The notes under the pieces: model-generated
Databases searched by the model: none
What the model saw: only the letters and a program-made list of their open reading frames with translations
Told to the model about the DNA's origin: nothing
Origin: a virus
Taxonomy: Duplodnaviria > Heunggongvirae > Uroviricota > Caudoviricetes
Reading direction: 5' to 3' (one strand)
DNA length: 14,772 nucleotides
IMG/VR virus record: IMGVR_UViG_2728369183_000003
Shown here: one piece after another, positions 1-14,772 of the stretch
Position numbering within the stretch: the stretch's first letter is position 1
How the letters are laid out: every line of letters begins with the position of its first letter
Made by a program: the position numbers and the translations under genes

Positions 1-41
1 CTTTAGTTTAATATTGGAATAGCAAAATATTTGTATAAATA

Positions 42-344
42 TTAGCGGTATACACACTTATAGATAATCCAAAGCTGACGAAGGTGTTGTTTTACCTTAC
101 AGTGGCTTACTTCTCCATAAATCCGATTACTTTGGTCTTCTTCTGTGTCATCGTAAAAATGATATCTCGTTTTTTTAATGATACTTTCCATAATGTCATT
201 CATATTGTATTTATTGTTGAGAAAATAATAAAAATCATCTGGTGCATTCCTCCGCAATCCGTCCATATAGCTCCTGAAATAACATTCGGCTTGTTCAATA
301 AACTGTTTTGTCGTAATAAGCTCTATCTTCATATTTTTCTCCAT
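42..344 (-). CDS. hypothetical small protein (about 96-100 aa) in AT-rich DNA downstream of alpA; second in-frame ATG at 332 has a better GGAG Shine-Dalgarno
   Basis: ORF in the six-frame track with mixed charged/aromatic composition; same strand as and 70 nt downstream of the AlpA-like gene; no family recognised. Confidence 0.35.
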   Translation of the reverse strand: MEKNMKIELITTKQFIEQAECYFRSYMDGLRRNAPDDFYYFLNNKYNMNDIMESIIKKTRYHFYDDTEEDQSNRIYGEVSHCKVKQHLRQLWIIYKCVYR

Positions 345-413
345 TATTGCTTAGGATAATAGGATGCCATGTGAGAACAGTTATCTGTTCGACACGAGAT
401 CTTGTTTCTGTTT

Positions 414-632
414 TTATGCTGCGTTCTGGCGTGAGTTTCGAATAGCCGCTTCAATCCATTCATCAATCTCACTTTCAACAAAAGCGACACACCTCGGACC
501 TATTTTTACTCTGTCTGGAAAGTTTCCTTCCTTAATACGTTCATATAAGGTCGTGCGACTGAATCCCACTCGATTTAAAACATCAGGAACGCGGATAAAT
601 CGTTTTACGCTGGTTTCAATATTTTCTTTCAT
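414..632 (-). CDS. alpA: AlpA-family (prophage CP4-57 regulatory protein-like) helix-turn-helix transcriptional regulator, 72 aa
   Basis: Translation MKENIETSVKRFIRVPDVLNRVGFSRTTLYERIKEGNFPDRVKIGPRCVAFVESEIDEWIEAAI matches the AlpA pattern (FIRLPEV...G.SRSTLY..I..G.FP.PVK.G.R.V.W...EV..WI) from memory. ATG at 632 is preceded by GAGGACAGACA; the longer 96-aa ORF from 704 has no ribosome-binding site. Confidence 0.8.
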   Translation of the reverse strand: MKENIETSVKRFIRVPDVLNRVGFSRTTLYERIKEGNFPDRVKIGPRCVAFVESEIDEWIEAAIRNSRQNAA

Positions 633-847
633 TGTCTGTCCTCTATTATTGTAAGTAATCTCTATGAGATTTCGCTTTTCTCTATGTTGTTTCGACGTGA
701 ACAATGATAGCGATTTTGCTTATGGTAATTTAGGGACGTTCAAAGAAGTTTTTTTTGAAAAATTCGAAGGGGCACGGATGGAAAGATAACGGTTAACACT
801 GGATGAGATCACGTTCGCTCGGAGCGAACGTAACCCTTTTACTTGGC

Positions 848-1684
848 TTATTTTTTCTTATTCCTGTCGTCTTCTACATGCTTTTCAACAGGGGAGTCTT
901 TCAAGTGGTTGTTTTCCATCATGTAATCTTCAAGCGATTTCAGATAGCTCGCATCCGTCAGAAAAGCCATTGCTAACGGGTAGTCCGTTGCCTTTAGCAT
1001 TCCTTCATCACGATCGTTGTCGCTGTCCTCGTGAAGCAGCGAAGAAATCAGTGAAAGCGGGATTTTAATGCCGTTATCTTCTCCCCAGAAGATCAGGTCC
1101 ATCATCGGGATAAGACGATATTCAATGATTTTTCTGAATGTGCTTTTGCCGAAACGATACTCTCTTGGCGCTGGAGACTTCATCTTAAGCTGTCTCTTCC
1201 ATTGAGGGATCAGCACTTTCAGATGTTCAATGATTTCTTCAGTTGATGCCTCTTCCAGATGAATATCGACAGTAATGCGTGAAAGATTATTAAGGGATGT
1301 TTCTTTTAGATACTCGGACAGAAATTCGGATTCGCTTAACGCGGAAAGCTCAGGCGTGGCTTCGGTTAATGCCAGCGTTTTCGCATAAAATTGCGCGTGG
1401 CTTCGTGTCGTAGGATTTACCGCGTAGGTTCTGGCAAGCTCATGTCCAAGGGTAGCGGTATCACCACTGAAAAAGATTTCACCGCTGAGGATCTTGTTGC
1501 GGTAATCATCCAGCATTAATCGGTTAAAGGTAGGTATGGTGTTCCGGCTCAACAACATTCTGTAAGCCAAGATACGCCGCTCAACCTCAACATAAAACTG
1601 CTGTAAGGTGAGTTTCTCTATCGCCTCATAGCGTTCCACATCAAACCATGCTTCCAGTGCTTTCCTGATTTCACTTCTTTTCAT
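848..1684 (-). CDS. hypothetical protein, 278 aa from the ATG at 1684 (ORF open upstream to a TTG at 1741); no recognisable family
   Basis: Long ORF in AT-rich DNA; ATG at 1684 is preceded by GGAGGA 4 nt upstream, whereas the TTG at 1741 has no Shine-Dalgarno. Sits between the tRNA fragment and alpA. Confidence 0.5.
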   Translation of the reverse strand: MKRSEIRKALEAWFDVERYEAIEKLTLQQFYVEVERRILAYRMLLSRNTIPTFNRLMLDDYRNKILSGEIFFSGDTATLGHELARTYAVNPTTRSHAQFYAKTLALTEATPELSALSESEFLSEYLKETSLNNLSRITVDIHLEEASTEEIIEHLKVLIPQWKRQLKMKSPAPREYRFGKSTFRKIIEYRLIPMMDLIFWGEDNGIKIPLSLISSLLHEDSDNDRDEGMLKATDYPLAMAFLTDASYLKSLEDYMMENNHLKDSPVEKHVEDDRNKKK

Positions 1685-1892
1685 CCATCCTCCAACAATC
1701 CATTTCCTTTGATATATCTTCACAGGATCCGTTTGGAACAATTGAAGTTCAACTGTTTTGTCATCAGAGACGGGGGAATGGCTAAGTTGTTGTTAAGAGT
1801 GTGAACTCGAGAGCATAAAAGTGGATGCCCGACGCGCGGCAAAATGGTAAAAAACAGCATCAGTAGTAAGAAAAATTGAGCGAGAGAAAGGA

Positions 1893-1921
1893 ATTTTAAT
1901 GCAGGGATTTATGCATGACAA
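1893..1921 (-). promoter_or_regulatory. candidate sigma70 promoter upstream of the 278-aa ORF (TTGTCA, 17-nt spacer, TAAAAT on the minus strand)
   Basis: -35 TTGTCA at 1921..1916 and -10 TAAAAT at 1898..1893 read on the minus strand. The region is AT-rich, so a chance match is possible. Confidence 0.3.
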
Positions 1922-1962
1922 AATCAAAAATTATTTGTAAGTGATTGATTTTGTTGAATGAT

Positions 1963-2024
1963 TGGCGGAGAGAGGGGGATTTGAACCCCCGGTAGAGTTG
2001 CCCCTACTCCGGTTTTCGAGACCG
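1963..2024 (-). tRNA. truncated tRNA-Ser (serU-type, anticodon CGA) 3' fragment of 62 nt, from the anticodon stem to the CCA end; not a functional tRNA, interpreted as the prophage attachment-site core (attR)
   Basis: Reverse complement of 1963..2024 reads CGGTCTCGAAAACCGGAGTAGGGGCAACTCTACCGGGGGTTCAAATCCCCCTCTCTCCGCCA, matching the 3' part of E. coli tRNA-Ser(CGA) as recalled. Similarity stops at 2025; the 5' acceptor and D arms are absent. Confidence 0.85.
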
Positions 2025-2514
2025 ATGATACAGAGTCGAAAAATCAAAGAGTTAAAAATTTTTCTTGGAATAAATGTCTTAAAATCGTACACGAAAAATC
2101 AATAAATTACATAACATTAAAGAAGAATATTCCAAGCCTTCTTGAGGCCACCACCTGTTTTCAGGTGTCATTCAGATGTGATTTACCCCAGATTGGGAAA
2201 GCACGCTTTTTTTTCTCAGCTTATTCCGTTTTGCCTGTGTGTTGAATAATTCCACTGCAGTTATATAAAATCGGTAACGGCTGGAAATCATTCAATACTC
2301 GCACTATCGAAAGTTCACCAGCCAACCGCAGCACGTCCTGCATACGTCGTGTCTGCGGTTTTTCTTTTTCGCTTACATTGTGTCTGGTTCTTCCAGCCAC
2401 TCAATATCAGGTGCAGTTGATGTATCAACACGGTTCAGCAACACCCGATACTTTTTCCAGGCTTCCAGCAACGGGGTTTCTTCCTCCGCCGTTGCATATA
2501 CAGCTCACCTTTTT

Positions 2515-2835
2515 TCACCCACGATTAACCAACAGCCAGACCAGCAGACACGCCACCACCGGNNNNNNNNNNNNNNNNNNNNNNNNNNNNNNNNNNNNNN
2601 NNNNNNNNNNNNNNNNNNNNNNNACACGCGGATCAAAACCGCCCCACCACGGCATGTTAATCCGCTTGCCATGCCCGAACATTTCAATCCAGCGATATTC
2701 TGCCTGGGTGTGTTCACGCGCAATGAAGAACGTACAACCAGCTATCGCTCCGTAAGCCCAGTTTCCGGTAAAAAGACCAGCCAGTACCTGCACCGCCACG
2801 GCACAAAGCGCATGAAGTATCGACGTGATATCCAT
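2515..2835 (-). CDS. small hydrophobic (predicted membrane) protein of about 106 aa, interrupted by a 61-nt N-run (2563-2623); the C-terminal 15 codons and stop are uncertain
   Basis: ATG at 2835 preceded by AAGGA 6 nt upstream. N-terminal 70 aa (MDITSILHALCAVAVQVLAGLFTGNWAYGAIAGCTFFIAREHTQAEYRWIEMFGHGKRINMPWWGGFDPR) contains a long hydrophobic segment. Last gene before the att fragment. Confidence 0.5.
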   Translation of the reverse strand: MDITSILHALCAVAVQVLAGLFTGNWAYGAIAGCTFFIAREHTQAEYRWIEMFGHGKRINMPWWGGFDPRXXXXXXXXXXXXXXXXXXXXXPVVACLLVWLLVNRG

Positions 2836-2844
2836 CTGCTATCC

Positions 2845-3123
2845 TTAAAACCACTCCCTGAGCGGGCGCTCTGGTGTAACCACCCACTCACGGAACACGG
2901 AATCCTCAAATCCATCGTCAAGAAGACGGATATTAACAAAGTACCCTTCGTTTCGCGTGTATTCTGGTTCTCCGTCATCAGAAACATCTGTCTCCCTGAA
3001 CGTAAAACCAATCTCATCAACCAGAACGGCATTCTGCAGCTCTTCGTCCTCTTCCCAGTTAAGTTTCCTGAGAAATGCCCTGAAATCTGCTCTATCACTG
3101 AAACGCAACGTGAAATCTCTCAC
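2845..3123 (-). CDS. acidic 92-aa hypothetical protein, translationally coupled to stf (GTG start overlapping the stf stop as GTGA); possible fibre-associated or other cargo function
   Basis: GTG at 3123..3121 overlaps the stf TGA at 3122..3120; GGGGAGG lies 7 nt upstream. Protein has 24 acidic residues of 92. Its stop (2847..2845) overlaps the Shine-Dalgarno of the next gene. Confidence 0.55.
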   Translation of the reverse strand: MRDFTLRFSDRADFRAFLRKLNWEEDEELQNAVLVDEIGFTFRETDVSDDGEPEYTRNEGYFVNIRLLDDGFEDSVFREWVVTPERPLREWF

Positions 3124-5183
3124 TCCACAACCTCCCCAAGCTGCGCATCTGTTAGCTCTTTATGCCAGAGACGAAAATTCCTCACATGCCCAAATAAATG
3201 GCGTAATCCTGCTGTAGTTTGTCCACCAATGCGAATGGTTGCTGTACTCCGGATATATTCCCATTTGGTTTTAGTTTCGCTGGATATACGCCCGTTACTT
3301 ACTGCACATGTAGACTGATCTGACTTTACACGCATCCCCATAACCATTTTTTTCAACGATGCGTTTTCGTTAACACGCCTATTTGATCCACCAATATCGC
3401 AATAAGGAAATCCGTCTGGCCCATCTGCCGAAGATCCGAAGCCAAGAATAATAGCCGCTCCGGTTTGATGACCACCGGTATCAAAAACACGTGGCGCTGC
3501 ATTTGGCGTTTTATACCAGTTCTTATGTACCTCACAAAGAACCGTAAAAGGAAGATTATAAAGATTATTATTAATTGGAACTGTAACTATATCGCTTGCG
3601 CGGGTAGCCGCCGTCGTTCCTGAGATAATAAAAGATGATGCACACGAACCATCCTCAACCTGAGGGGTGGCCAGATAAATATAGTCTCCAGATACGGTTG
3701 CTCCGCCCTGATTAGGAGAATACTGTATCTGAGATCCTATTTTTAACTCATCATCAATTGCCAGGATTGTTGCCTCTGCAAAAATCCATCCGGTAGCTTC
3801 GTCCTTTCTGACTCTCGCTGTAATCCCTGAGGCCGCGCCACCTGTCATATTAATTTCAAGCGTTTGTGTATCAATATATGCATCACCAAGAAAAGTTGTT
3901 GCACTACCGTCATATTTATCAAAGCGGATACGCAACCTTACCTGTCGTTCTGTTTTAAAACGACATGAGGTTGTCACGTACTTGTTATCGCCTGAAACAT
4001 CAACTGACTTTGTAGCAGCAATTGATGCCATATTAATGGCTGACGTTTGCCCAATCAGAGAATCGTTACAAACAAACTTTCCATAAGTAAAACCAAAACT
4101 ATCAGTTCCAACCTCAGCGACATTCATATTTGCAGATTTACCCCAAGAAGCTGGAGTTGCTGAATTCAACATGTAGTTGGTTCGCTGACCTTCAATCAAT
4201 AAACCTTCTTTTTCAAATCGTGGCTCATTAATTTCCGCCGTTTTCAGTTCGCCAGATTTGTTGATATATGTTGCCGTTGATGCGCGACTGAAATTAACCT
4301 GTTTATCACTGGCAACCTGAACCACATTATCGCCAATCTTCACTTTTTTATAACCCGGAGAATAGCCCGTAATCATATCCAGCGAATCATTAAAGGGTAT
4401 CCACACATCCGGCAGCGGCTGTAAAACATATCTGTACGGCTCTGCTGTCTGGTTTGCGTATTCTCTGGCAGCATCTTCACTTGCTTTTGCTGCCGTCTGG
4501 CTTGCTGCCGATGCTTTCGCCGAGTTCGCCGCCGCTGTTTCGCTCACCTTTGCGTTGGCTTCACTGTCTTTGGCATTCGTCTCACTGGTTTTCGCTGCCG
4601 TCTGGCTGGATTTTGCGTTTTTTTCGCTGGCCTTTGTGGCTGTCTCGCTATTTTTCGCGCTGGTTTCTGATTTTTTGGCTGCTGTCGCGGAGTTTGCCGA
4701 TGCAGTCTGCGAGGCCGCTGCCGCCTGTGCGCTGTTAGCTGCATTCGTTTCTGAGGTTTTCGCCGCATTCTTCGATGAGGCTGCTGCCGTTTCGGATTTC
4801 TTTGCCGCCGCTGCACTCTGTGATGACGCTCCGGCATGACGTGCCACTTCATTCACCATCAGCTCAAAACGGCGCAGTGCCTCCGGACGAACATCATCCT
4901 CCGTCATGGCGCCGAGAAAATCATTCAGCGTACCTGGTCTGGAACCTTCATAGACGGTAATGGTCCCGGCATGTGAAGGCGGAAAATCTTCAACCAGCAG
5001 GGTGACGCTGTACTGGCCATACTCAACATCCATGCTGTAACGCCCGGCTTCATCCGGATTTTCAGAGGCCACCGTGTTCACCACCACCGTGCTGCTGGTC
5101 CGTCTGGCCTTCAGCACAATGGTGCAGTTCTGTACTGGTTTTCCTGTGCCATCTTTAAGCACGCCAGAAATTTTTACTGTCAT
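3120..5183 (-). CDS. stf: side tail fibre protein (lambda Stf-like N-terminus, Ala/Lys/Ser/Thr/Glu-rich repeat shaft, divergent C-terminal domain), 687 aa
   Basis: N-terminus MTVKISGVLKDGTGKPVQNCTIVLKAR...GRYSMDVEYGQYSVTLLVEDFPPSHAGTITVYEGSRPGTLNDFLGAMTEDD is close to lambda Stf as recalled; ATG at 5183 with GGTGG Shine-Dalgarno. Confidence 0.85.
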   Translation of the reverse strand: MTVKISGVLKDGTGKPVQNCTIVLKARRTSSTVVVNTVASENPDEAGRYSMDVEYGQYSVTLLVEDFPPSHAGTITVYEGSRPGTLNDFLGAMTEDDVRPEALRRFELMVNEVARHAGASSQSAAAAKKSETAAASSKNAAKTSETNAANSAQAAAASQTASANSATAAKKSETSAKNSETATKASEKNAKSSQTAAKTSETNAKDSEANAKVSETAAANSAKASAASQTAAKASEDAAREYANQTAEPYRYVLQPLPDVWIPFNDSLDMITGYSPGYKKVKIGDNVVQVASDKQVNFSRASTATYINKSGELKTAEINEPRFEKEGLLIEGQRTNYMLNSATPASWGKSANMNVAEVGTDSFGFTYGKFVCNDSLIGQTSAINMASIAATKSVDVSGDNKYVTTSCRFKTERQVRLRIRFDKYDGSATTFLGDAYIDTQTLEINMTGGAASGITARVRKDEATGWIFAEATILAIDDELKIGSQIQYSPNQGGATVSGDYIYLATPQVEDGSCASSFIISGTTAATRASDIVTVPINNNLYNLPFTVLCEVHKNWYKTPNAAPRVFDTGGHQTGAAIILGFGSSADGPDGFPYCDIGGSNRRVNENASLKKMVMGMRVKSDQSTCAVSNGRISSETKTKWEYIRSTATIRIGGQTTAGLRHLFGHVRNFRLWHKELTDAQLGEVVE
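4454..4850 (-). repeat. imperfect tandem repeat tract inside stf encoding the Ala/Lys/Ser/Thr/Glu-rich shaft
   Basis: Protein segment AAKKSETAAASSKNAAKTSETNAANSAQAAAASQTASANSATAAKKSETSAKNSETATKASEKNAKSSQTAAKTSETNAKDSEANAKVSETAAANSAKASAASQTAAKASEDAA; the same nucleotide periodicity produces the spurious ORFs 4454..4738, 4544..4852 and 4555..4839. Confidence 0.5.
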
Positions 5184-5194
5184 ACTTTTCCACC

Positions 5195-5230
5195 AATAAA
5201 AAAAGCCCGCAGCAGTGACGCCACGGGCTT
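5195..5230 (-). terminator. candidate rho-independent terminator downstream of lom, immediately upstream of the stf start
   Basis: Minus-strand hairpin (stem AGCCCG/CGGGCT extended by A-T pairs, 14-nt loop) followed by TTTTTTTATT (reverse complement of 5195-5203). Confidence 0.4.
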
Positions 5231-5334
5231 CAGGACAGTGTAACTTTACGTTTCCTCAAACGCAGTTCACCCCATAAGGCGGATGAACCTGCGTATCATA
5301 ACAATATTTACAGAAGATAAATCGGCGTCTGTTG

Positions 5335-5934
5335 TCAGAAACGGTATCCGATACCAACAATAAATGCATCCGTTCGCCAGTCGCCACTACCGGAACCTTC
5401 ATAAGCAATATCAATGGTCACGGATTCGGTCGGGTTAAACTGCACGCCAGCTCCCCACGCCAGAGACGTGTTGCTGTGGCGATCGTCATCACTTCCGGTC
5501 AGCACATCGTGCGTTTTCCCCTTGTTGTCAGTTACGCGGAGATAATCCCCGGAGAACGTCGACACACGGCTGTAAGCCACACCTGCCATCGCATAAGCAC
5601 TGAACCATTCATTCACGCGTACAGATGGCCCCGCCATCACGCTGAACCAGCGGTTACGCACTGAATCTTCATGCCAGCGGGTATCGCTGTAGTGCGTTTT
5701 TTGCTCATCCTCAGCATTGGCATAACTGAAGGACGTAATCAGCCCCAGCGCGTCCGTAAACTCATAACGGTATTTCACGTTAATCCCGTTCAGATTATCG
5801 CTGCCTGGCATATCAGTGTGGGTCTGAAGATACCCGGCGCTTAGTGTGGACTGATGCTCTGCTGCGCTCGCTGGCGTACCAGCGGCAACCAGCCAGACTA
5901 CTGCGGACAGAATAACAGCACATAATTTACGCAT
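5335..5934 (-). CDS. lom: Lom, Ail/Lom-family outer-membrane beta-barrel protein (lysogenic-conversion moron), 199 aa
   Basis: Signal-peptide-like N-terminus MRKLCAVILSAVVWLVAAGTPASA and C-terminus ...SVTIDIAYEGSGSGDWRTDAFIVGIGYRF, nearly identical to the lambda Lom C-terminus as recalled; GAGAGG Shine-Dalgarno before the ATG at 5934. Confidence 0.9.
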   Translation of the reverse strand: MRKLCAVILSAVVWLVAAGTPASAAEHQSTLSAGYLQTHTDMPGSDNLNGINVKYRYEFTDALGLITSFSYANAEDEQKTHYSDTRWHEDSVRNRWFSVMAGPSVRVNEWFSAYAMAGVAYSRVSTFSGDYLRVTDNKGKTHDVLTGSDDDRHSNTSLAWGAGVQFNPTESVTIDIAYEGSGSGDWRTDAFIVGIGYRF

Positions 5935-6001: not shown

Positions 6002-7336
6002 TCAGCTAATCGTGATGCCTGCAGTGGCTTTCTTCATCACAACAACCAGCAAATCGCTGATACTTGCTGTGGGATACCAGCCATTTACCCACCATGCTGA
6101 TACAGAAAACTCCAGCGTCATGTCGCCGCGACCAGCAGGCATATCAATAACACCACTGTAAACCAGCGTATTATCCATCGCGGTACGGTTATAAATTTCA
6201 GCACCGTTTTTCTTCACTATCAGGCGGCATGACGAATAAGTATCGCTGTTCTCCCGCTCATGTCTGGCACCGCTGAAAGCCACCGCCGGAATAACAATCT
6301 GCCGGTTAAACGGCTGATCGTCATAAACCCTGACGGTAATGGTTCCTGATGGCCAACGCTTCGGTGCACGGGAGTCACGAGGGAAAGCCTTACCCACTGT
6401 TTTAACGAGATCGCCTTCAATCTGGTTTGCAGACAGTTTCCCTCTGATGACACAGTTCTTGTTAATGGTGACATTATTGAGCGTGCCGGTATTCGCCGTG
6501 ATGGCTCCACTGATATCCGCATTGCGGGCTGTCAGCCTGCCATCCGGCGTCAGGGAAAACGTCGGAGGATTGCCGGATGACGTGATGCTCACCGCAAACA
6601 GTCGCTTCAGGAACACGTCGTTCATGAACAGCTGATTCCCCTGCGCCACAAACAGCGGCGTGGTGTTGCCGTTCTCCGGGGTAATCATCGCGATACGGTC
6701 CGCCTGCAGCAGAATACTGCTCAGCGTCTGACCATCAACATCCTCAATCCCCGCGCCAATCCCGGCCACATAGGGAATACCGTTTTTTGTTTTCTGCACC
6801 TTCAGCATATACATGGCATTCAGCTCATTGCGCGTGTCTGACTGAACCCGCTGGATTTGCTGTATGGTCACGGCCTGGTCACCCAGCTTTTTATCCGTGG
6901 TCGAGGTAATTTCACTCCCTTTTTTATCCACGTACTGGCGGACCTGTGCTATCTGTCGGGCGTTTTCTGACTGCCCCTGGCTGACAGTCTGTGAGATTTC
7001 ACTGCTCACCCGGTCCACTTTCTGGCTCACCTGCGCGATGGCCAGTGTCTGGTCCTCATTCTTTTTCGCAACCAGCTGCGTGAGGCTGTTTTCCGCCTTC
7101 CCGATTTTCCGGGTCACTTCTGCGATATCCGTGTCCATCCGCTGACGGATGTCTTCTTCCAGTTGCGTGACCTCCGTACGCAGCGCTGAAGCATCAATGC
7201 GCTCTTTCAGTGCCTGGCCCAGAAGCGTCTCATCTATCAGCCCCCGGAAAAATTCCAGATACCCTTCACCATCATTGCTGGGCTGCCCGCTGGCTTCCAC
7301 AAAAGCAGATTTTCCCACCAGGTTGACGCTTCGCAC
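6002..7336 (-). CDS. J: host specificity protein J (central tail fibre), C-terminal fragment; frame is open upstream to about 7400 and joins the N-terminal fragment through a single-base frameshift
   Basis: Translation ...[40 protein letters not shown]...[10 protein letters not shown]...[22 protein letters not shown]...[14 protein letters not shown] is collinear with the C-terminal third of lambda J as recalled. Confidence 0.8.
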
Positions 7337-9693
7337 GTAAAACCAGAAATCCGTCCCCGGCTTAATCCGGCTCCCCTGGACAGTCCACTGACTGCCGGTC
7401 CCAGATAACGGGCAGATTTTTCCACCTGTGCCGTGTTCGTGATGCGTTTTTCTGAGAACCAGAATTCAAACTGTACCGTCGGGTCATACACCGCAAGACG
7501 CGGGACCGCCGTTATCTGAAAATACCCCGGCGTCAGCTCAATGGTGGCGGGTTTTGCAGGCGCGTTAATCCGGAAGGTGGTGGTCGCAGGTTCGCCCTGC
7601 TGGCCGTAGCTGTTAATGGCCCGCACCGTCAGGGTGTATTCCCCCAGCGGCAGACCACTGAAACGGTGCTCCGTGTCTGCGGTGATGGCGGTGCTCACCA
7701 GACGGCTGTCTTCTCCGCTTCCGCTGGTCAGACGCAGACTGAAGCGCACACCCTTCACCACCCGCGGCGTGTCCCATTTCGCCTGTGCCAGATACTGACC
7801 GTCAGCTGCACTCACCTCCACCGTCAGGTGCTGCACTGCCGGTGGGATAACGCTGTTCAGGCTGCCTGACTGCGGCTCAAAGCTGGCCCCGTTATCCACA
7901 ATGGCTTCTTTTTCCGGTACGTGCTGCACCGCCGTGATGGCGAACGTGCCGTCCGTGTTTTCCCGGATGGAGACACAGCGGAACAGGCGACGACGCAGTG
8001 ACGGCAGGGAGAGTCCCCACACCCCGTATGTCTCCACACCATCAGGCAGGGTACTGACCTGTATCCGGTCCGGCGCGGGGTGTGCGGTGATGTCCACACT
8101 CACCGGCTTACCGCTGCCGTTAATCAGGTTCACCGCCGATGTACCTGTCTCCGGCAGGGTAACCTCACGGTCCAGCGTCAGGGTGCGGGTGGCAGCATCA
8201 ATGGACAGGACACGTCCGCCGGTCAGGGTCCCGGCATAGTCATTATCACAGATTTCAATAATGTCACCGGGTGTGTGCCGCAGCCCCTGAGACCCGAGCG
8301 TGAAATCCACCGTCTGCGTTTCCAGCAGTTCGGTCTTTATCACCCACAGTCCGGCACGGTGGGCCTGACCGCGGCTGGTACAGCCGAACGCGTCCATCTT
8401 CAGCAGGTTGCGTCCGTAGCGCAGTATGGCTTCCGGGTCTTCCACCAGTTCCGTGGAGGTCTGCCAGCCGTTCTGCGGGTCGGTGTAATTCACCTCCACC
8501 GCCGTGTGCCGGTCCTTCAGGGCACTGAAGCTGTAGCGGAATCCCACGCCGTTATCATCCACCACCACATCGCTGTTGGTGTACGGCCACACCACATCCG
8601 ACGGGCGGTCCTGAACGAACGTCAGCGTCTGACCGTTCCATACCGGCATACAGCGCATCGCAGAGCAGAAATCACTGAGAACGTCCCACGCCTTACGCTG
8701 TTGTGCCAGGTACGCATTAAAGGTCATCCGCGGCTCGGTCCCCCCGAAACCATCCGGGACCGTCTGGTCGCAGTACTGCCCGATGGCATACAGCGCCCAC
8801 TTGTCCACATCCGCCGCCCCCAGACGTTTTCCCATGCCGTAGCGCGGGTGAGTCAGCATGTCCCACAGGCACCAGGCCGGGTTGTTGCTGTATGCCGGTT
8901 TCAGACTGCCGTCCCAGATACCACTGTACGTGCGTTTTTCCGGGTCATAGTTTGACGGCACCTGGATGATGCGACCGCGGATATGGTAGTTCACCGTCAT
9001 CTGCTGGCCGCCGAACTGCTCCGCATCCACCTGCAGCCCCACAATGGCCGTGTTCGGGTAGCACTGTTTCACATCGATGATTTCGGTGTATGACGACCAC
9101 AGCGTCTTATTCTGCAGCTGGTCCGTGGTGCTGTCCGCCGTCTCCCTGACCATCCGGATGTTAAAGGGCCGGGGAGGCAGATTATCCAGAATCACCGAGG
9201 CCAGGAACTGCGAGGTGGTCTTGCCGTTAATGGTGACATCCTTTTCCGTCACCCAGCGGCCATTACGCTGTAACTGAATCAGAATCCGGACAGAGGAAGG
9301 ATTACGGTCGCCCTTTGACGTGGTCTGCACCAGTGACTGCACCCCGAAGGTAACCCGCAGGCGGTCAATGTTCGCGGACGTAATGGTGCGCGTCACCGGT
9401 TTTGCCTTCGTCACTTCCACGCCCAGTCCGGTTTCAGCACCGGAGGACTCAAAGCCTTCCGGTGGTGTCTGCTCCTGCTCCCCGGCGCGCCAGACCGCCG
9501 TCACACCGTGTATCACGGGATTACCGTCCGTGTCCGTCAGCGGGGTTTTGTTCACCAGGATACTCTGCAGTCCCTTCACCGGACCTTCTATCGGTCCCTC
9601 ACCAATCGCATCAATCACGCTCATCATCTGCGTGGATTTGAGATTATCCTTCGCCTCACGAGGCGTGTGTGCCTTACCGCCACCTTTTCCCAT
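7237..9693 (-). CDS. J: host specificity protein J (central tail fibre), N-terminal fragment of 818 aa ending in an out-of-frame tail after the frameshift near 7365-7370
   Basis: ATG at 9693 preceded by GGGGAAGG. Translation ...[29 protein letters not shown] follows lambda J; after YLGPA the frame departs from J and the continuation appears in the overlapping frame of 6002..7336. Confidence 0.8.
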
Positions 9694-12396: not shown

Positions 12397-14772
12397 CCAC
12401 CGCTCCCTGATAACATACCGCCATCACGCAACTGCAGCCGGAGTTCATCCTGTGCCCCCTTGCGGGCCATCTCATACACCGCTTTCATCAGCTGCGGCCC
12501 TGCCCGCCCGTTGGGGCCGTCGTTCTGAATCACCACGTGATTGTTCTGATTAAAATTAATGCCTTCCGCCCGCCGCATCTGCGCCGGACTTCCGGCACCG
12601 CCGACATAACCACCTTCCGCATAGCCCCGCATCAGGCGGTACAGATTGCCGACACCAATCCGGCTGGTCGCCTCCTTCGTGAAGACAAACTCCCCGCGAT
12701 GAACAATCCCCGCAGGTTCATATTTACCCCCCGTCCCCGTAAATCCCCCGGTCGCGAAATGGAAGTTCGCCGCCGCAGCCTGAATGGCTGTACCGCCTGA
12801 CGCGGATGCGCCGCCACCAACAGCCCCGCCAATGGCGCTGCCGATACTCCCNNNNNNNNNNNNNNNNNNNNNNNNNNNNNNNNNNNNNNNNNNNNNNNNN
12901 NNTATCCCCACCATCGCCTGCTTCAGAAAAATCTCTGTCAGCATGGACAGCACAGAACGGGTGAAACCACGCCAGTTCTGTTCGCTGCCGGTCAGCATCG
13001 CTGCCATATTCTGTGCAATACCGTCAAAGGTCTGCGTGGCCGCGTTTTTAACCTGCGAAAAACTGTCCGTCGCACTTTCCGCCCACTCGCCCCAGCCGGA
13101 CTTCATCCCGGCCATCCAGCTTCCACGAAGCTGCTCCTCCGCAGACCAGGTGTTCTTCAGTGCNNNNNNNNNNNNNNNNNNNNNNNNNNNNNNNNNNNNN
13201 NNNNNNNNNNTCCGCGGGCTTTTGCGCTGATTGCCGCCTGCTTCGCGCTCTGCTGCTGTTCAAACCGCGCCGCCTGCTGTGCCAGCTCATTCAGCCGTTT
13301 CTGGTGTTCAATCTTGTCGCCCAGCTCAGCCAGCTGGCGTTTGTACTCCAGCGTTTCTTTCTCATGGGCCAGCAGGGATTTTTCCTGCTCAGATAACTGC
13401 CGTTTCGTGGCGGCCTCTTTCAGGACCACATACTGATTTTCCGCTTCCCATAAATCCCGGCGCTGCTGGCTGATTTTCTCATTCACACCGCTGTGTTTTT
13501 CCAGCGTCCTGAGCTCGGTTTCAAGCGCCAGCATGGCTGCATGCGCCCGGTCTTCCTGGCGCTCACCGGCAGACACCTTCACACCTGACGGCTTTTTCAG
13601 CGTCGATTCATAATCCTTTTTTGCCGACGCCATCAGCGTGTTGTAATCCGCCTGCAGGATTTTTCCGTCTTTCAGGGCCTTATTCAGCTCTTTCTGACGG
13701 GCGGTATATTTATCCAGCGGCGTCTGCAGGCGCTCATACGCCTTCTGCGCCTCTCCGGTATACTTCAGCTGTGACGCCTCACGCTCAGCCCGGTCCCTTG
13801 CCGCCAGTTCACCGGCTTTTTCCATATCCGACTGCAGCGTGGCCGCTGCCAGACCCAGACGGGCATTTTCCCGGTCATCCCATGCCCCCTGAAGGTTCGC
13901 ACGAAAAGAGGAGGTCTTTCCCCGGCGCTGGCTCCGGCTCTGGTACCACTGCCATTTTTTATCCGCCTCATCAAATGCCTTCTGCGCACTGGCGAGCATA
14001 TCCGCTGAGGATTCAGGACGACCGATATCCAGAATGGCATCCCACATCGATTTGAATGCCTTCCCTGTTTTATCCGCCCAGGTCTCCAGTGTTCCCATGT
14101 TTTCTTTCAGGCGACGGGTCTGCTCATCAAAGCCTTTCGTGGCGATATCGTTCGCCGCCTGCAATGCCCCGGCCTCGTCTCCGGAACGCTGCAGCTGTGC
14201 AACATACGCAATCTGCTCTGCCGTCACGTTACGGAACTGGCGCGCCATCGCCATCAGTCCCGACGTCGGGTCAGTGGTCAGCTTCCCGAAGGCTTCAGCG
14301 ACTTTATCCACCTCCACACCGGATGCAGACGCAAAACGCGCGACACTCTGGTTGATGGCATCAAACTGTTCACCACCACGCACACCGGCATTCATCAGGG
14401 CTGCCAGTGACTCTCTCGCCTGGTTAAACGTCAGCCCTGCTGCCTGCCCGGCTCTTGAGAGAGTCAGCATACGATCGGCAGTCAGTCCGGACTGATTACC
14501 GGAAAGAACCAGGGTTTTATTAAACGCTGAAAGCGTGGAATCTCCCTGGTACCAGGCGTACACCAGCGCACCTGTCGCCACCGCCAGCGAGGTGACCCCG
14601 ACCATCGGCAGGGTGATCGCACCGGCGAGCCCCCTGAACATGGGGATCATCCCGCCGAAGGAGTCCTTCACCTGACCGCCCTGTTGCAGCAGGATCAGCC
14701 AGGGATTCTGACCACCGGCAAGCTGCGTGGCGATATCCGTAAACTGTGCGGGCAGGGTTCGCATGGCCGCTT
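12393..14772 (-). CDS. H: tail tape measure protein H (lambda gpH-like), partial; 5' end lies beyond the right window edge; interrupted by N-runs at 12852-12902 and 13164-13210
   Basis: ORFs 13157..14764 (MRTLPAQFTDIATQLAGGQNPWLILLQQGGQVKDSFGGMIPMFRGLAGAITLPMVG...) and 12393..13115 (...WMAGMKSGWGEW...IVHRGEFVFTKEATSRIGVGNLYRLMRGYA...) are collinear with lambda gpH from about residue 80 to the C-terminus. Lambda H has about 80 residues N-terminal of the MRMLPAQFTD motif, so the true start is outside the window. Confidence 0.85.

What the first reader, a model, noticed from the sequence alone, without database searches (positions are those of the whole stretch)
2515..3123. Two tightly coupled small cargo genes at the prophage terminus, after stf and before attR: acidic 92-aa protein plus small membrane protein
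The last two genes before the att fragment are packed onto the tail fibre gene: GTGA overlap with the stf stop, then a stop overlapping the next Shine-Dalgarno. The first is strongly acidic (24 Asp/Glu in 92 aa); the second has a long hydrophobic N-terminal segment typical of inner-membrane proteins. The stf-to-att interval of lambdoid prophages is a classical slot for lysogenic-conversion, superinfection-exclusion and anti-defence cargo. An acidic protein could be a fibre chaperone or a DNA-mimic-type inhibitor; a small membrane protein could be an exclusion or abortive-infection effector. Neither is assignable by eye. The 61-nt N-run at 2563-2623 obscures the membrane protein C-terminus.
Basis: partly seen in the sequence, partly recalled or inferred. 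Interest (0 to 1): 0.6.

Follow-up and report, generated by a model that had tools for sequence, protein, structure and literature searches.

The report
Tail-fibre partner plus prophage membrane gene
The two small genes after the prophage tail-fibre gene are separate modules: the acidic one always travels with this type of fibre, even in purely lytic phages, so it is probably a fibre helper, while the other belongs to a widespread, unnamed family of small membrane proteins that temperate phages keep just after their receptor-binding genes, possibly to protect the lysogen.

Summary
A GTGA overlap joins the stf stop to a 92-aa acidic ORF (24 D/E, pI 4.3), whose TAA stop lies in the Shine-Dalgarno of a hydrophobic ORF. 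The N-run replaces 34 nt, so the true membrane protein is 97 aa.

The "cargo pair" reading is only partly right.

- **92-aa gene (phrog_1361).** It follows one fibre C-terminal module (stf aa 250-687) in 192 phage records, against 218 carrying the module. These include obligately lytic T1-, T5- and rV5-like phages. The two matches abutted in all 14 records seen in both samples. It is most likely a fibre assembly or accessory protein, not a DNA mimic. It has no sequence or fold match to known chaperones.
- **Membrane gene (phrog_1443).** It is a separate module with backbone-like GC, in 1870 of 5426 complete E. coli genomes. Its 3-helix product has a near-invariant REHTQAEYRW…MPWWGGFD motif. 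It sits directly after receptor-binding genes in lambdoid, P22-like, P2/HP1-like and other prophages across four proteobacterial classes. It is absent or decayed in lytic phages and also chromosomal in Aeromonas and sphingomonads. The best guess, which is inferred, is a lysogen-side exclusion or envelope factor.

A 38-codon tfa remnant downstream marks replacement of an stf-tfa cassette.

The parts
3120..5183 (-). Side tail fibre gene stf (687 aa). It has an N-terminal anchor (phage_tail_N), an Ala-rich repeat shaft and a C-terminal receptor-binding module. That module spans aa 250-687 (nt 3120-4436).
   Evidence: Pfam phage_tail_N 1.3e-67. NCBIfam GTA_spike_fiber covers aa 329-529. PDB 6tb9 RcGTA head-spike fibre Rcc01080 matches aa 298-544, and 9e7m matches aa 1-94. 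The C-module has 42.8% GC against 54.6% in the N part.
2845..3123 (-). 92-aa acidic protein (phrog_1361), translationally coupled to stf by a GTGA overlap. It is the conserved small partner of this fibre C-module.
2515..2835 (-). Small membrane protein gene (phrog_1443). It reads as 106 codons here because of the N-run, and is 97 aa in relatives. The product has three helices and a near-invariant REHTQAEYRWI...NMPWWGGFD motif.
   Evidence: It is present in 1870 of 5426 complete E. coli genomes.
2563..2623 (.). Run of 61 N inside the membrane gene. It stands for 34 nt in relatives, and the reading frame is kept (61-34 = 27).
   Evidence: Alignment with AF26 and PhiR49_2.
2373..2486 (-). Remnant of a tail fibre assembly gene (tfa), coding the last 38 residues only. 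It is a recombination scar.
   Evidence: The translation is [30 protein letters not shown].... RefSeq annotates the same stretch in strain AF26 as a partial tail fiber assembly protein pseudogene. A sub-threshold Rfam IS009 match overlaps it.
1963..2024 (-). tRNA 3' fragment, the att remnant at the prophage end. Beyond it lies a different island carrying DUF6387 and AlpA genes.
   Evidence: The sequence was read directly. No full tRNA is called. Rfam gives weak matches. Pfam finds DUF6387 and Phage_AlpA at 848-1741 and 414-704.
5202..5231 (-). Terminator-like hairpin between lom and stf.
   Evidence: Phage 21 has an annotated terminator just upstream of its stf, between the gpJ-like central tail fibre gene and stf.

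Best explanation
The interval holds two independent modules.

**Module 1: fibre C-terminal domain plus the 92-aa gene.**
- The fibre's C-terminal receptor-binding module and the 92-aa gene form one mobile two-gene cassette.
- The cassette is exchanged among temperate and lytic sipho- and myoviruses.
- The small acidic alpha/beta protein is made in step with the fibre through translational coupling.
- It most likely acts on the fibre's C-terminal domain, either as a dedicated assembly chaperone or as an accessory subunit. In that role it takes the place that Tfa has for lambda Stf. This role is inferred.

**Module 2: the 97-aa gene.**
- It belongs to the lambdoid backbone, not to the fibre cassette.
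- It encodes a three-helix inner-membrane protein with a strongly conserved polar and aromatic face on one side of the membrane.
- Temperate phages of several architectures keep it in the slot immediately after their receptor-binding genes.
- It most likely benefits the lysogen through an exclusion-type or envelope-modifying function acting at the inner membrane. This too is inferred.

What is shown: gene linkage, distribution, conservation and predicted folds. What is inferred: the chaperone or accessory role, and the exclusion or envelope role.
For: **92-aa protein**
- Homologues occur in 192 phage records against 218 records with the fibre C-module, with nearly the same breakdown by organism name.
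- In all 14 records seen in both samples the two matches abut within 0-3 nt.
- The pair is present in lytic Bas05 (T1-like), Bas32 (T5-like) and FFH2 (rV5-like). Their fibre C-modules are 44-56% identical to the window's.
- Distant metagenomic pairs, with the small protein at 29-33% identity in the alignment, keep the same overlap and the same fibre C-terminal motif.
- A 38-codon tfa remnant downstream shows that this cassette replaced an stf-tfa cassette.
- GC is 42.8% in the fibre module and 47.3% in the 92-aa gene, against 54.6% in the backbone.

**Membrane protein**
- GC is backbone-like at 54.6%.
- The gene is about 95% identical in DNA across lambdoid phages that carry different fibre alleles.
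- It lies directly after the receptor-binding gene, or after the fibre assembly gene, in:
  - P22-like JEP4 (tailspike, this gene, then int);
  - phiHAP-1 (tfa, this gene, then sheath), which is the P2 Z/fun exclusion slot (PMC3091744);
  - HP1-like Aeromonas and Leclercia prophages;
  - tailspike prophages;
  - Comamonas, Chelativorans and Desulfovibrio prophages.
- It is absent from the lytic phages that carry the same fibre cassette.
- In lytic HC6 and KFSST3 it survives only as broken fragments after tailspike genes.
- Twenty positions are at least 90% conserved across 48 sequences from four proteobacterial classes.
- The AF2 model has pLDDT 93.
Against: **92-aa protein**
- There is no sequence match to Caudo_TAP, DUF4376 or any other Pfam or NCBIfam family.
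- No complex model or virion proteomics could be obtained, so chaperone, structural subunit and adaptor cannot be told apart.
- Its divergence does not track the fibre strictly. 2G7b has the fibre C-module 86% identical but the small protein only 45% identical.

**Membrane protein**
- No promoter is predicted in front of it, and its start overlaps or abuts late genes. Expression in the lysogen is therefore not shown.
- Its sequence is too conserved to track the variable receptor-binding proteins it follows.
- Chromosomal copies with conserved synteny exist in Aeromonas (Pirin/RIO1 neighbourhood) and next to ligA in sphingomonads. This suggests a cellular role unrelated to phages.
- It gives no PADLOC hit.
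Confidence: 0.6

Rival explanations
1. The 92-aa protein is a structural adaptor rather than a chaperone. It would stay on the fibre's C-terminal domain and serve as the docking point for a second, distal fibre protein, giving a branched or two-part lateral fibre.
For: In several genomes the small gene is followed at once by a second fibre-like protein. Examples are 2G7b (345 aa with an S74-type C-terminus), Bas32 (574-aa tail fiber protein) and Bas05 (231 aa with a Peptidase_S74 match). The small-protein subtype differs between 2G7b and the window although their fibres are 76% identical overall and 86% over the C-module. Two-protein lateral fibres are documented for T5-like phages (PMC4728585).
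Against: The window, phage 21, ev243 and PhiR49_2 have no second fibre gene after it. No structural or proteomic data were found.
Confidence: 0.25
2. Both genes are lysogenic-conversion or anti-defence cargo. The acidic protein would be a DNA-mimic type inhibitor and the membrane protein its partner.
For: The 92-aa protein is strongly acidic. The pair lies in the stf-to-att region, where cargo such as sitABCD and ompT sits in relatives.
Against: The acidic gene is tied to a late structural gene in lytic phages of at least four groups, without the membrane gene. The two genes differ in GC and in distribution: 364 against 1870 E. coli genomes. Neither gives a PADLOC hit.
Confidence: 0.05
3. The membrane protein is a holin-like late lysis protein. 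It would have been carried along with tail-fibre modules from phages whose lysis cassette follows the fibre genes.
For: It is about 100 aa with three helices. Basic C-terminal tails in alphaproteobacterial homologues fit an N-out/C-in, class-I-holin-like topology. In an Acidovorax prophage it directly precedes a Phage_lysozyme protein. It abuts late genes.
Against: Only that one locus has an endolysin after it, and no lysozyme family recurs among 109 downstream proteins. Lambdoid and P22-like carriers are expected to have their own lysis cassettes, from general knowledge rather than a check here. A 30-residue loop that is near-invariant across four bacterial classes is unlike holins. Chromosomal copies have no lysis genes nearby. 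It matches no Pfam holin family.
Confidence: 0.1
4. The membrane protein is a captured housekeeping envelope protein that gives the host a fitness effect unrelated to phages. Alternatively it has no selected function in prophages and simply hitch-hikes at a recombination hot spot.
For: Chromosomal copies are syntenic in Aeromonas species and lie next to ligA in sphingomonads. Fragments sit at module junctions in lytic phages.
Against: The same orientation and immediate adjacency after receptor-binding genes recur in unrelated phage architectures. The ORF is intact, with up to 7 copies per genome, in a third of E. coli genomes. Strong purifying selection is seen in the phage copies.
Confidence: 0.2

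Closest known systems
Lambda Tfa, P2 G and Mu U tail fibre assembly proteins (Pfam Caudo_TAP / DUF4376)
   Same: It is a small acidic protein encoded immediately after the fibre gene and co-inherited with the fibre's C-terminal receptor-binding part. Here it occupies the place of a deleted tfa, whose remnant lies at 2373-2486.
   Different: There is no sequence similarity. It is half the size and has a different predicted fold. It is tied to a lectin-like (Laminin_G_3 type) fibre end related to the RcGTA head-spike fibre, rather than to lambda/T4-type fibre tips.
C-terminal intramolecular chaperone of fibres and tailspikes (Peptidase_S74)
   Same: It could serve the same purpose, folding of the distal fibre part, and it would be made at 1:1 with the fibre.
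   Different: It is a separate polypeptide, not an autocleaved domain, and shows no homology. S74 domains occur in the second fibre proteins that follow it in some genomes.
P2 Z/Fun, P22 gtrABC / Sf6 oac, T5 Llp and phi80/N15 Cor: exclusion or conversion genes placed next to receptor-binding genes
   Same: The membrane gene sits in the same slots: between the tail fibre assembly gene and the sheath gene in phiHAP-1, between tailspike and int in a P22-like phage, and after stf in lambdoid phages. It is kept by temperate phages but not by lytic ones.
   Different: There is no sequence relation to any of them. It is an inner-membrane three-helix protein, not an outer-membrane lipoprotein or a glycosyl- or acetyl-transferase. 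It is far more conserved than the receptor-binding proteins beside it. No phenotype is known.
Class I holins (lambda S type)
   Same: Size is about 100 aa with three membrane helices. The topology is possibly N-out/C-in with a basic C-tail.
   Different: It has a long conserved loop. It is not next to an endolysin, with one exception. It co-exists with canonical lysis cassettes and has chromosomal homologues.

Membership tests
Tail fibre assembly proteins (Tfa; Pfam Caudo_TAP PF02413 / DUF4376 PF14301) | Sequence match to the family profiles | tested here: not met
   Scans of the 92-aa protein with Pfam and NCBIfam at E up to 0.1 and PHROGs at E up to 0.01 return only phrog_1361 and phrog_18574 (unknown function) and a noise-level SARAH hit.
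Tail fibre assembly proteins (Tfa) | Encoded directly downstream of the fibre gene and co-inherited with the fibre's C-terminal part | tested here: met
   The GTGA overlap is present here. The two matches abut in all 14 phage records sampled in both searches. There are 192 records with the small gene against 218 with the fibre module.
Tail fibre assembly proteins (Tfa) | Required for fibre trimerisation or folding, and binds the fibre tip | not testable with these tools
   No multimer prediction or experiment was available.
DNA-mimic anti-restriction proteins (Ocr / ArdA type) | Early or leading-region expression independent of structural genes, with an elongated acidic surface that mimics DNA | tested here: not met
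Known anti-phage defence proteins (PADLOC-DB 2.0) | Profile match | tested here: not met
   Neither protein gives a hit at E up to 0.1.
Holins (Pfam holin families; class I architecture) | Profile match to a holin family | tested here: not met
   The window's own membrane ORF (X-masked at the N-run) gives no Pfam family at E up to 0.1. The intact relative P0025 gives no NCBIfam family.
Holins (class I architecture) | Adjacent to an endolysin or spanin genes | tested here: not met
   One locus (Acidovorax L118) has Phage_lysozyme downstream. No lysozyme family recurs among 109 downstream proteins from about 60 loci.
Holins (class I architecture) | Three transmembrane helices, N-out/C-in, basic C-terminal tail | tested here: inconclusive
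   Three helices are predicted. Basic C-tails are seen in alphaproteobacterial homologues but not in the E. coli form. Charge counts do not settle the topology.
Prophage superinfection-exclusion / lysogenic-conversion genes (morons) | Located in a known accessory slot and dispensable for lytic growth | tested here: met
   It occupies the P2 Z/fun slot in phiHAP-1, the tailspike-int slot in JEP4 and the post-stf slot in lambdoid phages. It is absent or decayed in lytic phages.
Prophage superinfection-exclusion / lysogenic-conversion genes (morons) | Own promoter and expression in the lysogen; exclusion or surface phenotype | not testable with these tools
   The consensus scan finds no promoter in front of it, which is weak evidence. 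No expression or phenotype data were found in the paper searches.
GtrA-like / O-antigen modification proteins | Profile match to GtrA or to acyl- or glycosyl-transferase families | tested here: not met
   No Pfam or NCBIfam hit.

The most novel reading that the evidence does not exclude
The 97-aa protein would represent a new, very widespread family of phage-borne inner-membrane exclusion or envelope-remodelling factors. Its members are conserved from Alpha- to Gammaproteobacteria and Desulfovibrio. They are carried next to receptor-binding genes by lambdoid, P22-like and P2-like prophages, and are present in a third of complete E. coli genomes. They would act through the invariant H8 / REHTQAEYRW / MPWWGGFD face on a conserved host component. 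The 92-aa protein would define a new class of tail-fibre chaperone or adaptor shared by T1-, T5-, rV5- and lambda-like phages.
Probability: 0.3. Interest if true: 0.7.

Novelty: new variant of a known kind. Interest (0 to 1): 0.5.

Why it matters
Both families are common but unnamed.

**The small fibre partner.**
- It accompanies a lateral-fibre module used by model and therapeutic coliphages, including the BASEL phages Bas05 and Bas32.
- Anyone swapping these fibre modules to retarget phages probably needs to move the 92-aa gene with them.

**The membrane protein.**
- It sits in a third of complete E. coli genomes, often in several copies. It occupies the slots where temperate phages keep exclusion and surface-conversion genes.
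- If it does block infection or alter the envelope, it would be a frequent and unrecognised determinant of phage host range.
- Its chromosomal relatives in Aeromonas and sphingomonads would point to the host process it touches.

Both ideas can be tested directly with existing phage collections.

Tried and rejected
- **Family scans.** Scans of both proteins against Pfam, NCBIfam (both at E up to 0.1), PHROGs (at E up to 0.01) and PADLOC (at E up to 0.1) gave only PHROG families of unknown function.
- **Fold searches for the 92-aa model.**
  - BFVD returned only uncharacterised phage proteins.
- **Fold search for the membrane model.** BFVD gave nothing at E of 0.001 or better. The afdb50 library was unavailable.
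- **Profile searches against PDB sequences.** The 92-aa profile gave only a noise-level telomerase p19 hit, and the membrane profile gave none.
- **Giant PKD-repeat proteins.** The exhaustive search returned large PKD-repeat proteins with up to 11 weak matches to the 92-aa query. I rejected these as compositional. They are all-beta repeats rich in acidic turns, whereas the model has two helices.
- **Holin idea.** I tested this by looking for endolysins downstream. Only one locus has one.
- **DUF4376 fusion.** I looked for a Tfa-type DUF4376 domain fused to the 92-aa-like domain in Comamonas and Pantoea. The C-terminal extension has no Pfam match. The DUF4376 hits belong to other proteins, such as L122.
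- **Papers.**
  - Searches for either family, for FIG/PHROG identifiers, for phage 21 and for lambdoid morons gave no functional data.
  - The rV5 proteomics paper was not informative, because rV5 gp41 is a different fibre allele.
  - The svsR sRNA paper was unrelated.
- **Promoter scan.** It found no more sites than shuffled sequence does.

Full report
**1. What is in the sequence**

The minus strand of the window carries the end of a lambdoid prophage late operon.
- gpJ is at 6002-9693.
- lom is at 5335-5934.
- A terminator-like hairpin is at 5202-5231.
- stf is at 3120-5183 (687 aa, Pfam phage_tail_N).

- stf ends GAG TGA, and the next ORF starts at the GTG of that GTGA.
- That ORF (2845-3123) encodes 92 aa with 24 Asp/Glu, pI 4.3.
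- Its TAA stop lies in TAAGGA, six bases before the ATG of the third ORF (2515-2835).

The 61-N run at 2563-2623 replaces 34 nt in two close relatives. The real product is therefore 97 aa.

Downstream lies a 38-codon remnant of the lambda Tfa C-terminus at 2373-2486. RefSeq annotates the same stretch as a partial tfa pseudogene in strain AF26. Next comes a tRNA 3' fragment at about 1963-2024, and beyond it a different island with DUF6387 and AlpA genes.

**2. The 92-aa protein belongs to the fibre, not to the cargo**

It matches phrog_1361 end to end, and nothing in Pfam, NCBIfam or PADLOC.

tblastn finds homologues in 192 phage records. Besides lambdoid phages these include several obligately lytic groups:
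- T1-like Drexlerviridae, such as Bas05 PeterMerian, tonn and swan01;
- T5-like Demerecviridae, such as Bas32 IrisVonRoten and SPLA5b;
- rV5-like Vequintavirus, such as FFH2;
- Dhillonvirus and JenP1/2.

In the annotated loci examined, the small gene starts at or within the stop of a lateral or side tail fibre gene.

Those fibres share the window's C-terminal module, stf aa 250-687.
- Identity to the window is 53% in Bas05, 56% in Bas32, 44% in FFH2 and 70% in phage 21.
- All keep the C-terminal ...FGH(V/I)(R/K)(N/D)x(R)(I/V/L)W... end.
- Searching with the module alone finds 218 phage records with nearly the same breakdown by organism name.
- In all 14 records that appear in both sampled tables, the two matches abut within 0-3 nt.

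Two distant metagenomic homologues, at 29-33% identity in the alignment, also overlap the stop of a fibre with the same conserved N- and C-terminal segments.

In Comamonas and Pantoea prophages a remote relative (phrog_18574) again follows a fibre of the same PHROG families. It is either free-standing or fused to a C-terminal extension of about 95 aa.

The fibre module is partly homologous to the RcGTA head-spike fibre Rcc01080 (PDB 6tb9; NCBIfam GTA_spike_fiber). A distant relative of the fibre carries a weak Pfam Laminin_G_3 hit. Its GC is 42.8% (GC3 33.5%) against 54.6% for the stf N-terminal part, and the 92-aa gene is intermediate at 47.3%.

Together with the tfa remnant, this shows a two-gene cassette that replaced the stf C-end plus tfa by recombination.

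I therefore conclude, by inference from linkage, that this is a fibre-specific assembly or accessory protein. Whether it is a transient chaperone, a retained subunit or an adaptor could not be decided. The adaptor idea rests on the second fibre protein that follows it in 2G7b, Bas32 and Bas05. The DNA-mimic idea is disfavoured by the late, fibre-coupled position in lytic phages.

**3. The membrane protein is a separate, much more widespread module**

It matches phrog_1443 (unknown function) and no curated family.

*Distribution in E. coli and lambdoid phages*
- Its GC is backbone-like at 54.6%.
- The gene together with part of the adjoining tfa remnant is about 95% identical in lambdoid phages that carry different fibre alleles. 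These include phage 21, 2G7b and ev243.
- It is found in 1870 of 5426 complete E. coli genomes, with a median of 2 and up to 7 copies. It is always annotated as hypothetical. The present 92-aa allele is in only 364 genomes.

*Wider relatives and predicted structure*
- The word-index homologue search returned 571 relatives.
- A species-level genome scan found it in Gamma-, Beta- and Alphaproteobacteria and in Desulfovibrio.
- Across 48 diverse sequences, 20 positions are at least 90% conserved: H8, R40, E41, Q44-I50, G56, R58, M61-G66, D68 and D79. W72 and P83 are invariant.
- AF2 gives three helices (4-23, 26-53, 74-96) at pLDDT 93.
- The conserved residues lie at the N-terminal side of helices 1 and 3 and on the extension of helix 2, so they share one face of the membrane. 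Basic C-terminal tails in alphaproteobacterial members suggest N-out/C-in, which would put that face in the periplasm. This is inference only.

*Genomic context.* In phage settings the gene lies directly after the receptor-binding gene, or after its assembly gene:
- after stf and the 92-aa gene in lambdoid phages;
- after a second fibre in 2G7b;
- after the tailspike and before int in P22-like JEP4;
- after tfa and before the sheath gene in phiHAP-1, which is the P2 Z/fun exclusion slot and a known hot spot for acquired genes (PMC3091744);
- after the fibre in HP1-like Aeromonas and Leclercia prophages;
- after GDSL-esterase or Tail_spike_N tailspikes;
- after a Laminin_G_3 fibre in Chelativorans and an S74 tailspike in Desulfovibrio;
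- after gpJ in Comamonas;
- just upstream of an avd gene and a reverse transcriptase (a diversity-generating retroelement) in two Burkholderiales.

*Lytic phages.* The lytic phages with the same fibre cassette lack it. Lytic HC6 and Kuttervirus KFSST3 carry only broken fragments of it right after tailspike genes. It is therefore dispensable for making receptor-binding proteins and is not maintained outside temperate phages.

*Chromosomal copies.* Copies also exist with conserved neighbours in Aeromonas (Pirin/RIO1) and directly after ligA in sphingomonads. The phage copies thus look like a captured host membrane protein.

**4. Mechanism and rivals**

For the membrane protein I commit to a lysogen-side function at the inner membrane, either exclusion of incoming phage or alteration of the envelope. 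The grounds are its slot, its temperate-only maintenance and its conserved face. Three weaknesses remain:
- no promoter is predicted;
- expression and phenotype are unknown;
- the protein is too conserved to be specific for the variable receptor-binding proteins beside it.

A holin-like role fits the size and possible topology, and one Acidovorax locus where it precedes a lysozyme. No endolysin family recurs downstream elsewhere, and the long invariant loop is unlike holins. A housekeeping or hitch-hiking reading cannot be excluded.

**5. Comparison and novelty**

The small protein works like a Tfa-type partner but fails the sequence test for that family. The membrane protein sits where Z/Fun, gtr/oac and similar genes sit, but is unrelated to them. 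Neither family appears in the searched literature. I rate the finding as a new variant of known kinds, of moderate interest and directly testable.

Noticed in passing
window 6002-9693 (around 7400): The gpJ tail-tip gene is split into two overlapping ORFs (6002-7336 and 7237-9693). The cause is a 1-nt deletion in a C/G homopolymer relative to the intact gpJ of strain AF26. This is either a defective prophage or a sequencing error.
   Followed up: partly
window 12852-12902 and 13164-13210: There are two further N-runs (51 and 47 N) inside tail genes, besides the one in the membrane gene.
   Followed up: no
window 2416-2517 (minus strand): A sub-threshold Rfam match to IS009 (68 bits against a gathering score of 117, E = 5e-15) overlaps the tfa remnant and the 3' end of the membrane gene. 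The family may simply be built on tfa-remnant sequence.
   Followed up: no
window 1-2030: Beyond the tRNA fragment lies a different integrated element, with DUF6387 (848-1741) and an AlpA-type regulator (414-704). In strain AF26 it continues with H-NS-like genes. This suggests tandem occupation of one tRNA site.
   Followed up: partly
window 3120-4436: The stf C-terminal module has much lower GC (42.8%, GC3 33.5%) than the rest of the prophage. It is shared at 44-86% identity with lytic T1-, T5- and rV5-like phages. It is also partly homologous to the RcGTA head-spike fibre (PDB 6tb9).
   Followed up: yes
L171 2965-3120 (phage HC6); L172 2980-3105 (Kuttervirus KFSST3): Unannotated, broken fragments of the membrane-protein gene lie directly after tailspike genes in obligately lytic phages. 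They look like scars of tailspike-module transfer from prophages.
   Followed up: yes
L123 and L124, 5001-7051: In Comamonas nitrativorans and Pigmentiphaga the membrane gene lies between an unidentified 370-383-aa protein (no Pfam match) and an Avd gene. A reverse transcriptase is also among the downstream genes at these loci, so this is a diversity-generating retroelement.
   Followed up: partly
L113 4432-4995, L117 4432-4995, L106 4484-4996: In Comamonas and Pantoea prophages the 92-aa-like domain is fused to a C-terminal extension of about 95 aa. The extension has no Pfam match (phrog_6034 in one case). A free-standing 95-aa form occurs in L103.
   Followed up: partly
P0150, P0161, P0163: Giant PKD-repeat proteins (up to 2744 aa) score against the 92-aa query through up to 11 weak repeats. 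I judged this compositional rather than homologous.
   Followed up: partly
L118 5001-6181: In an Acidovorax prophage the membrane gene directly precedes a Phage_lysozyme protein. This is the only locus seen with a holin-like arrangement.
   Followed up: partly
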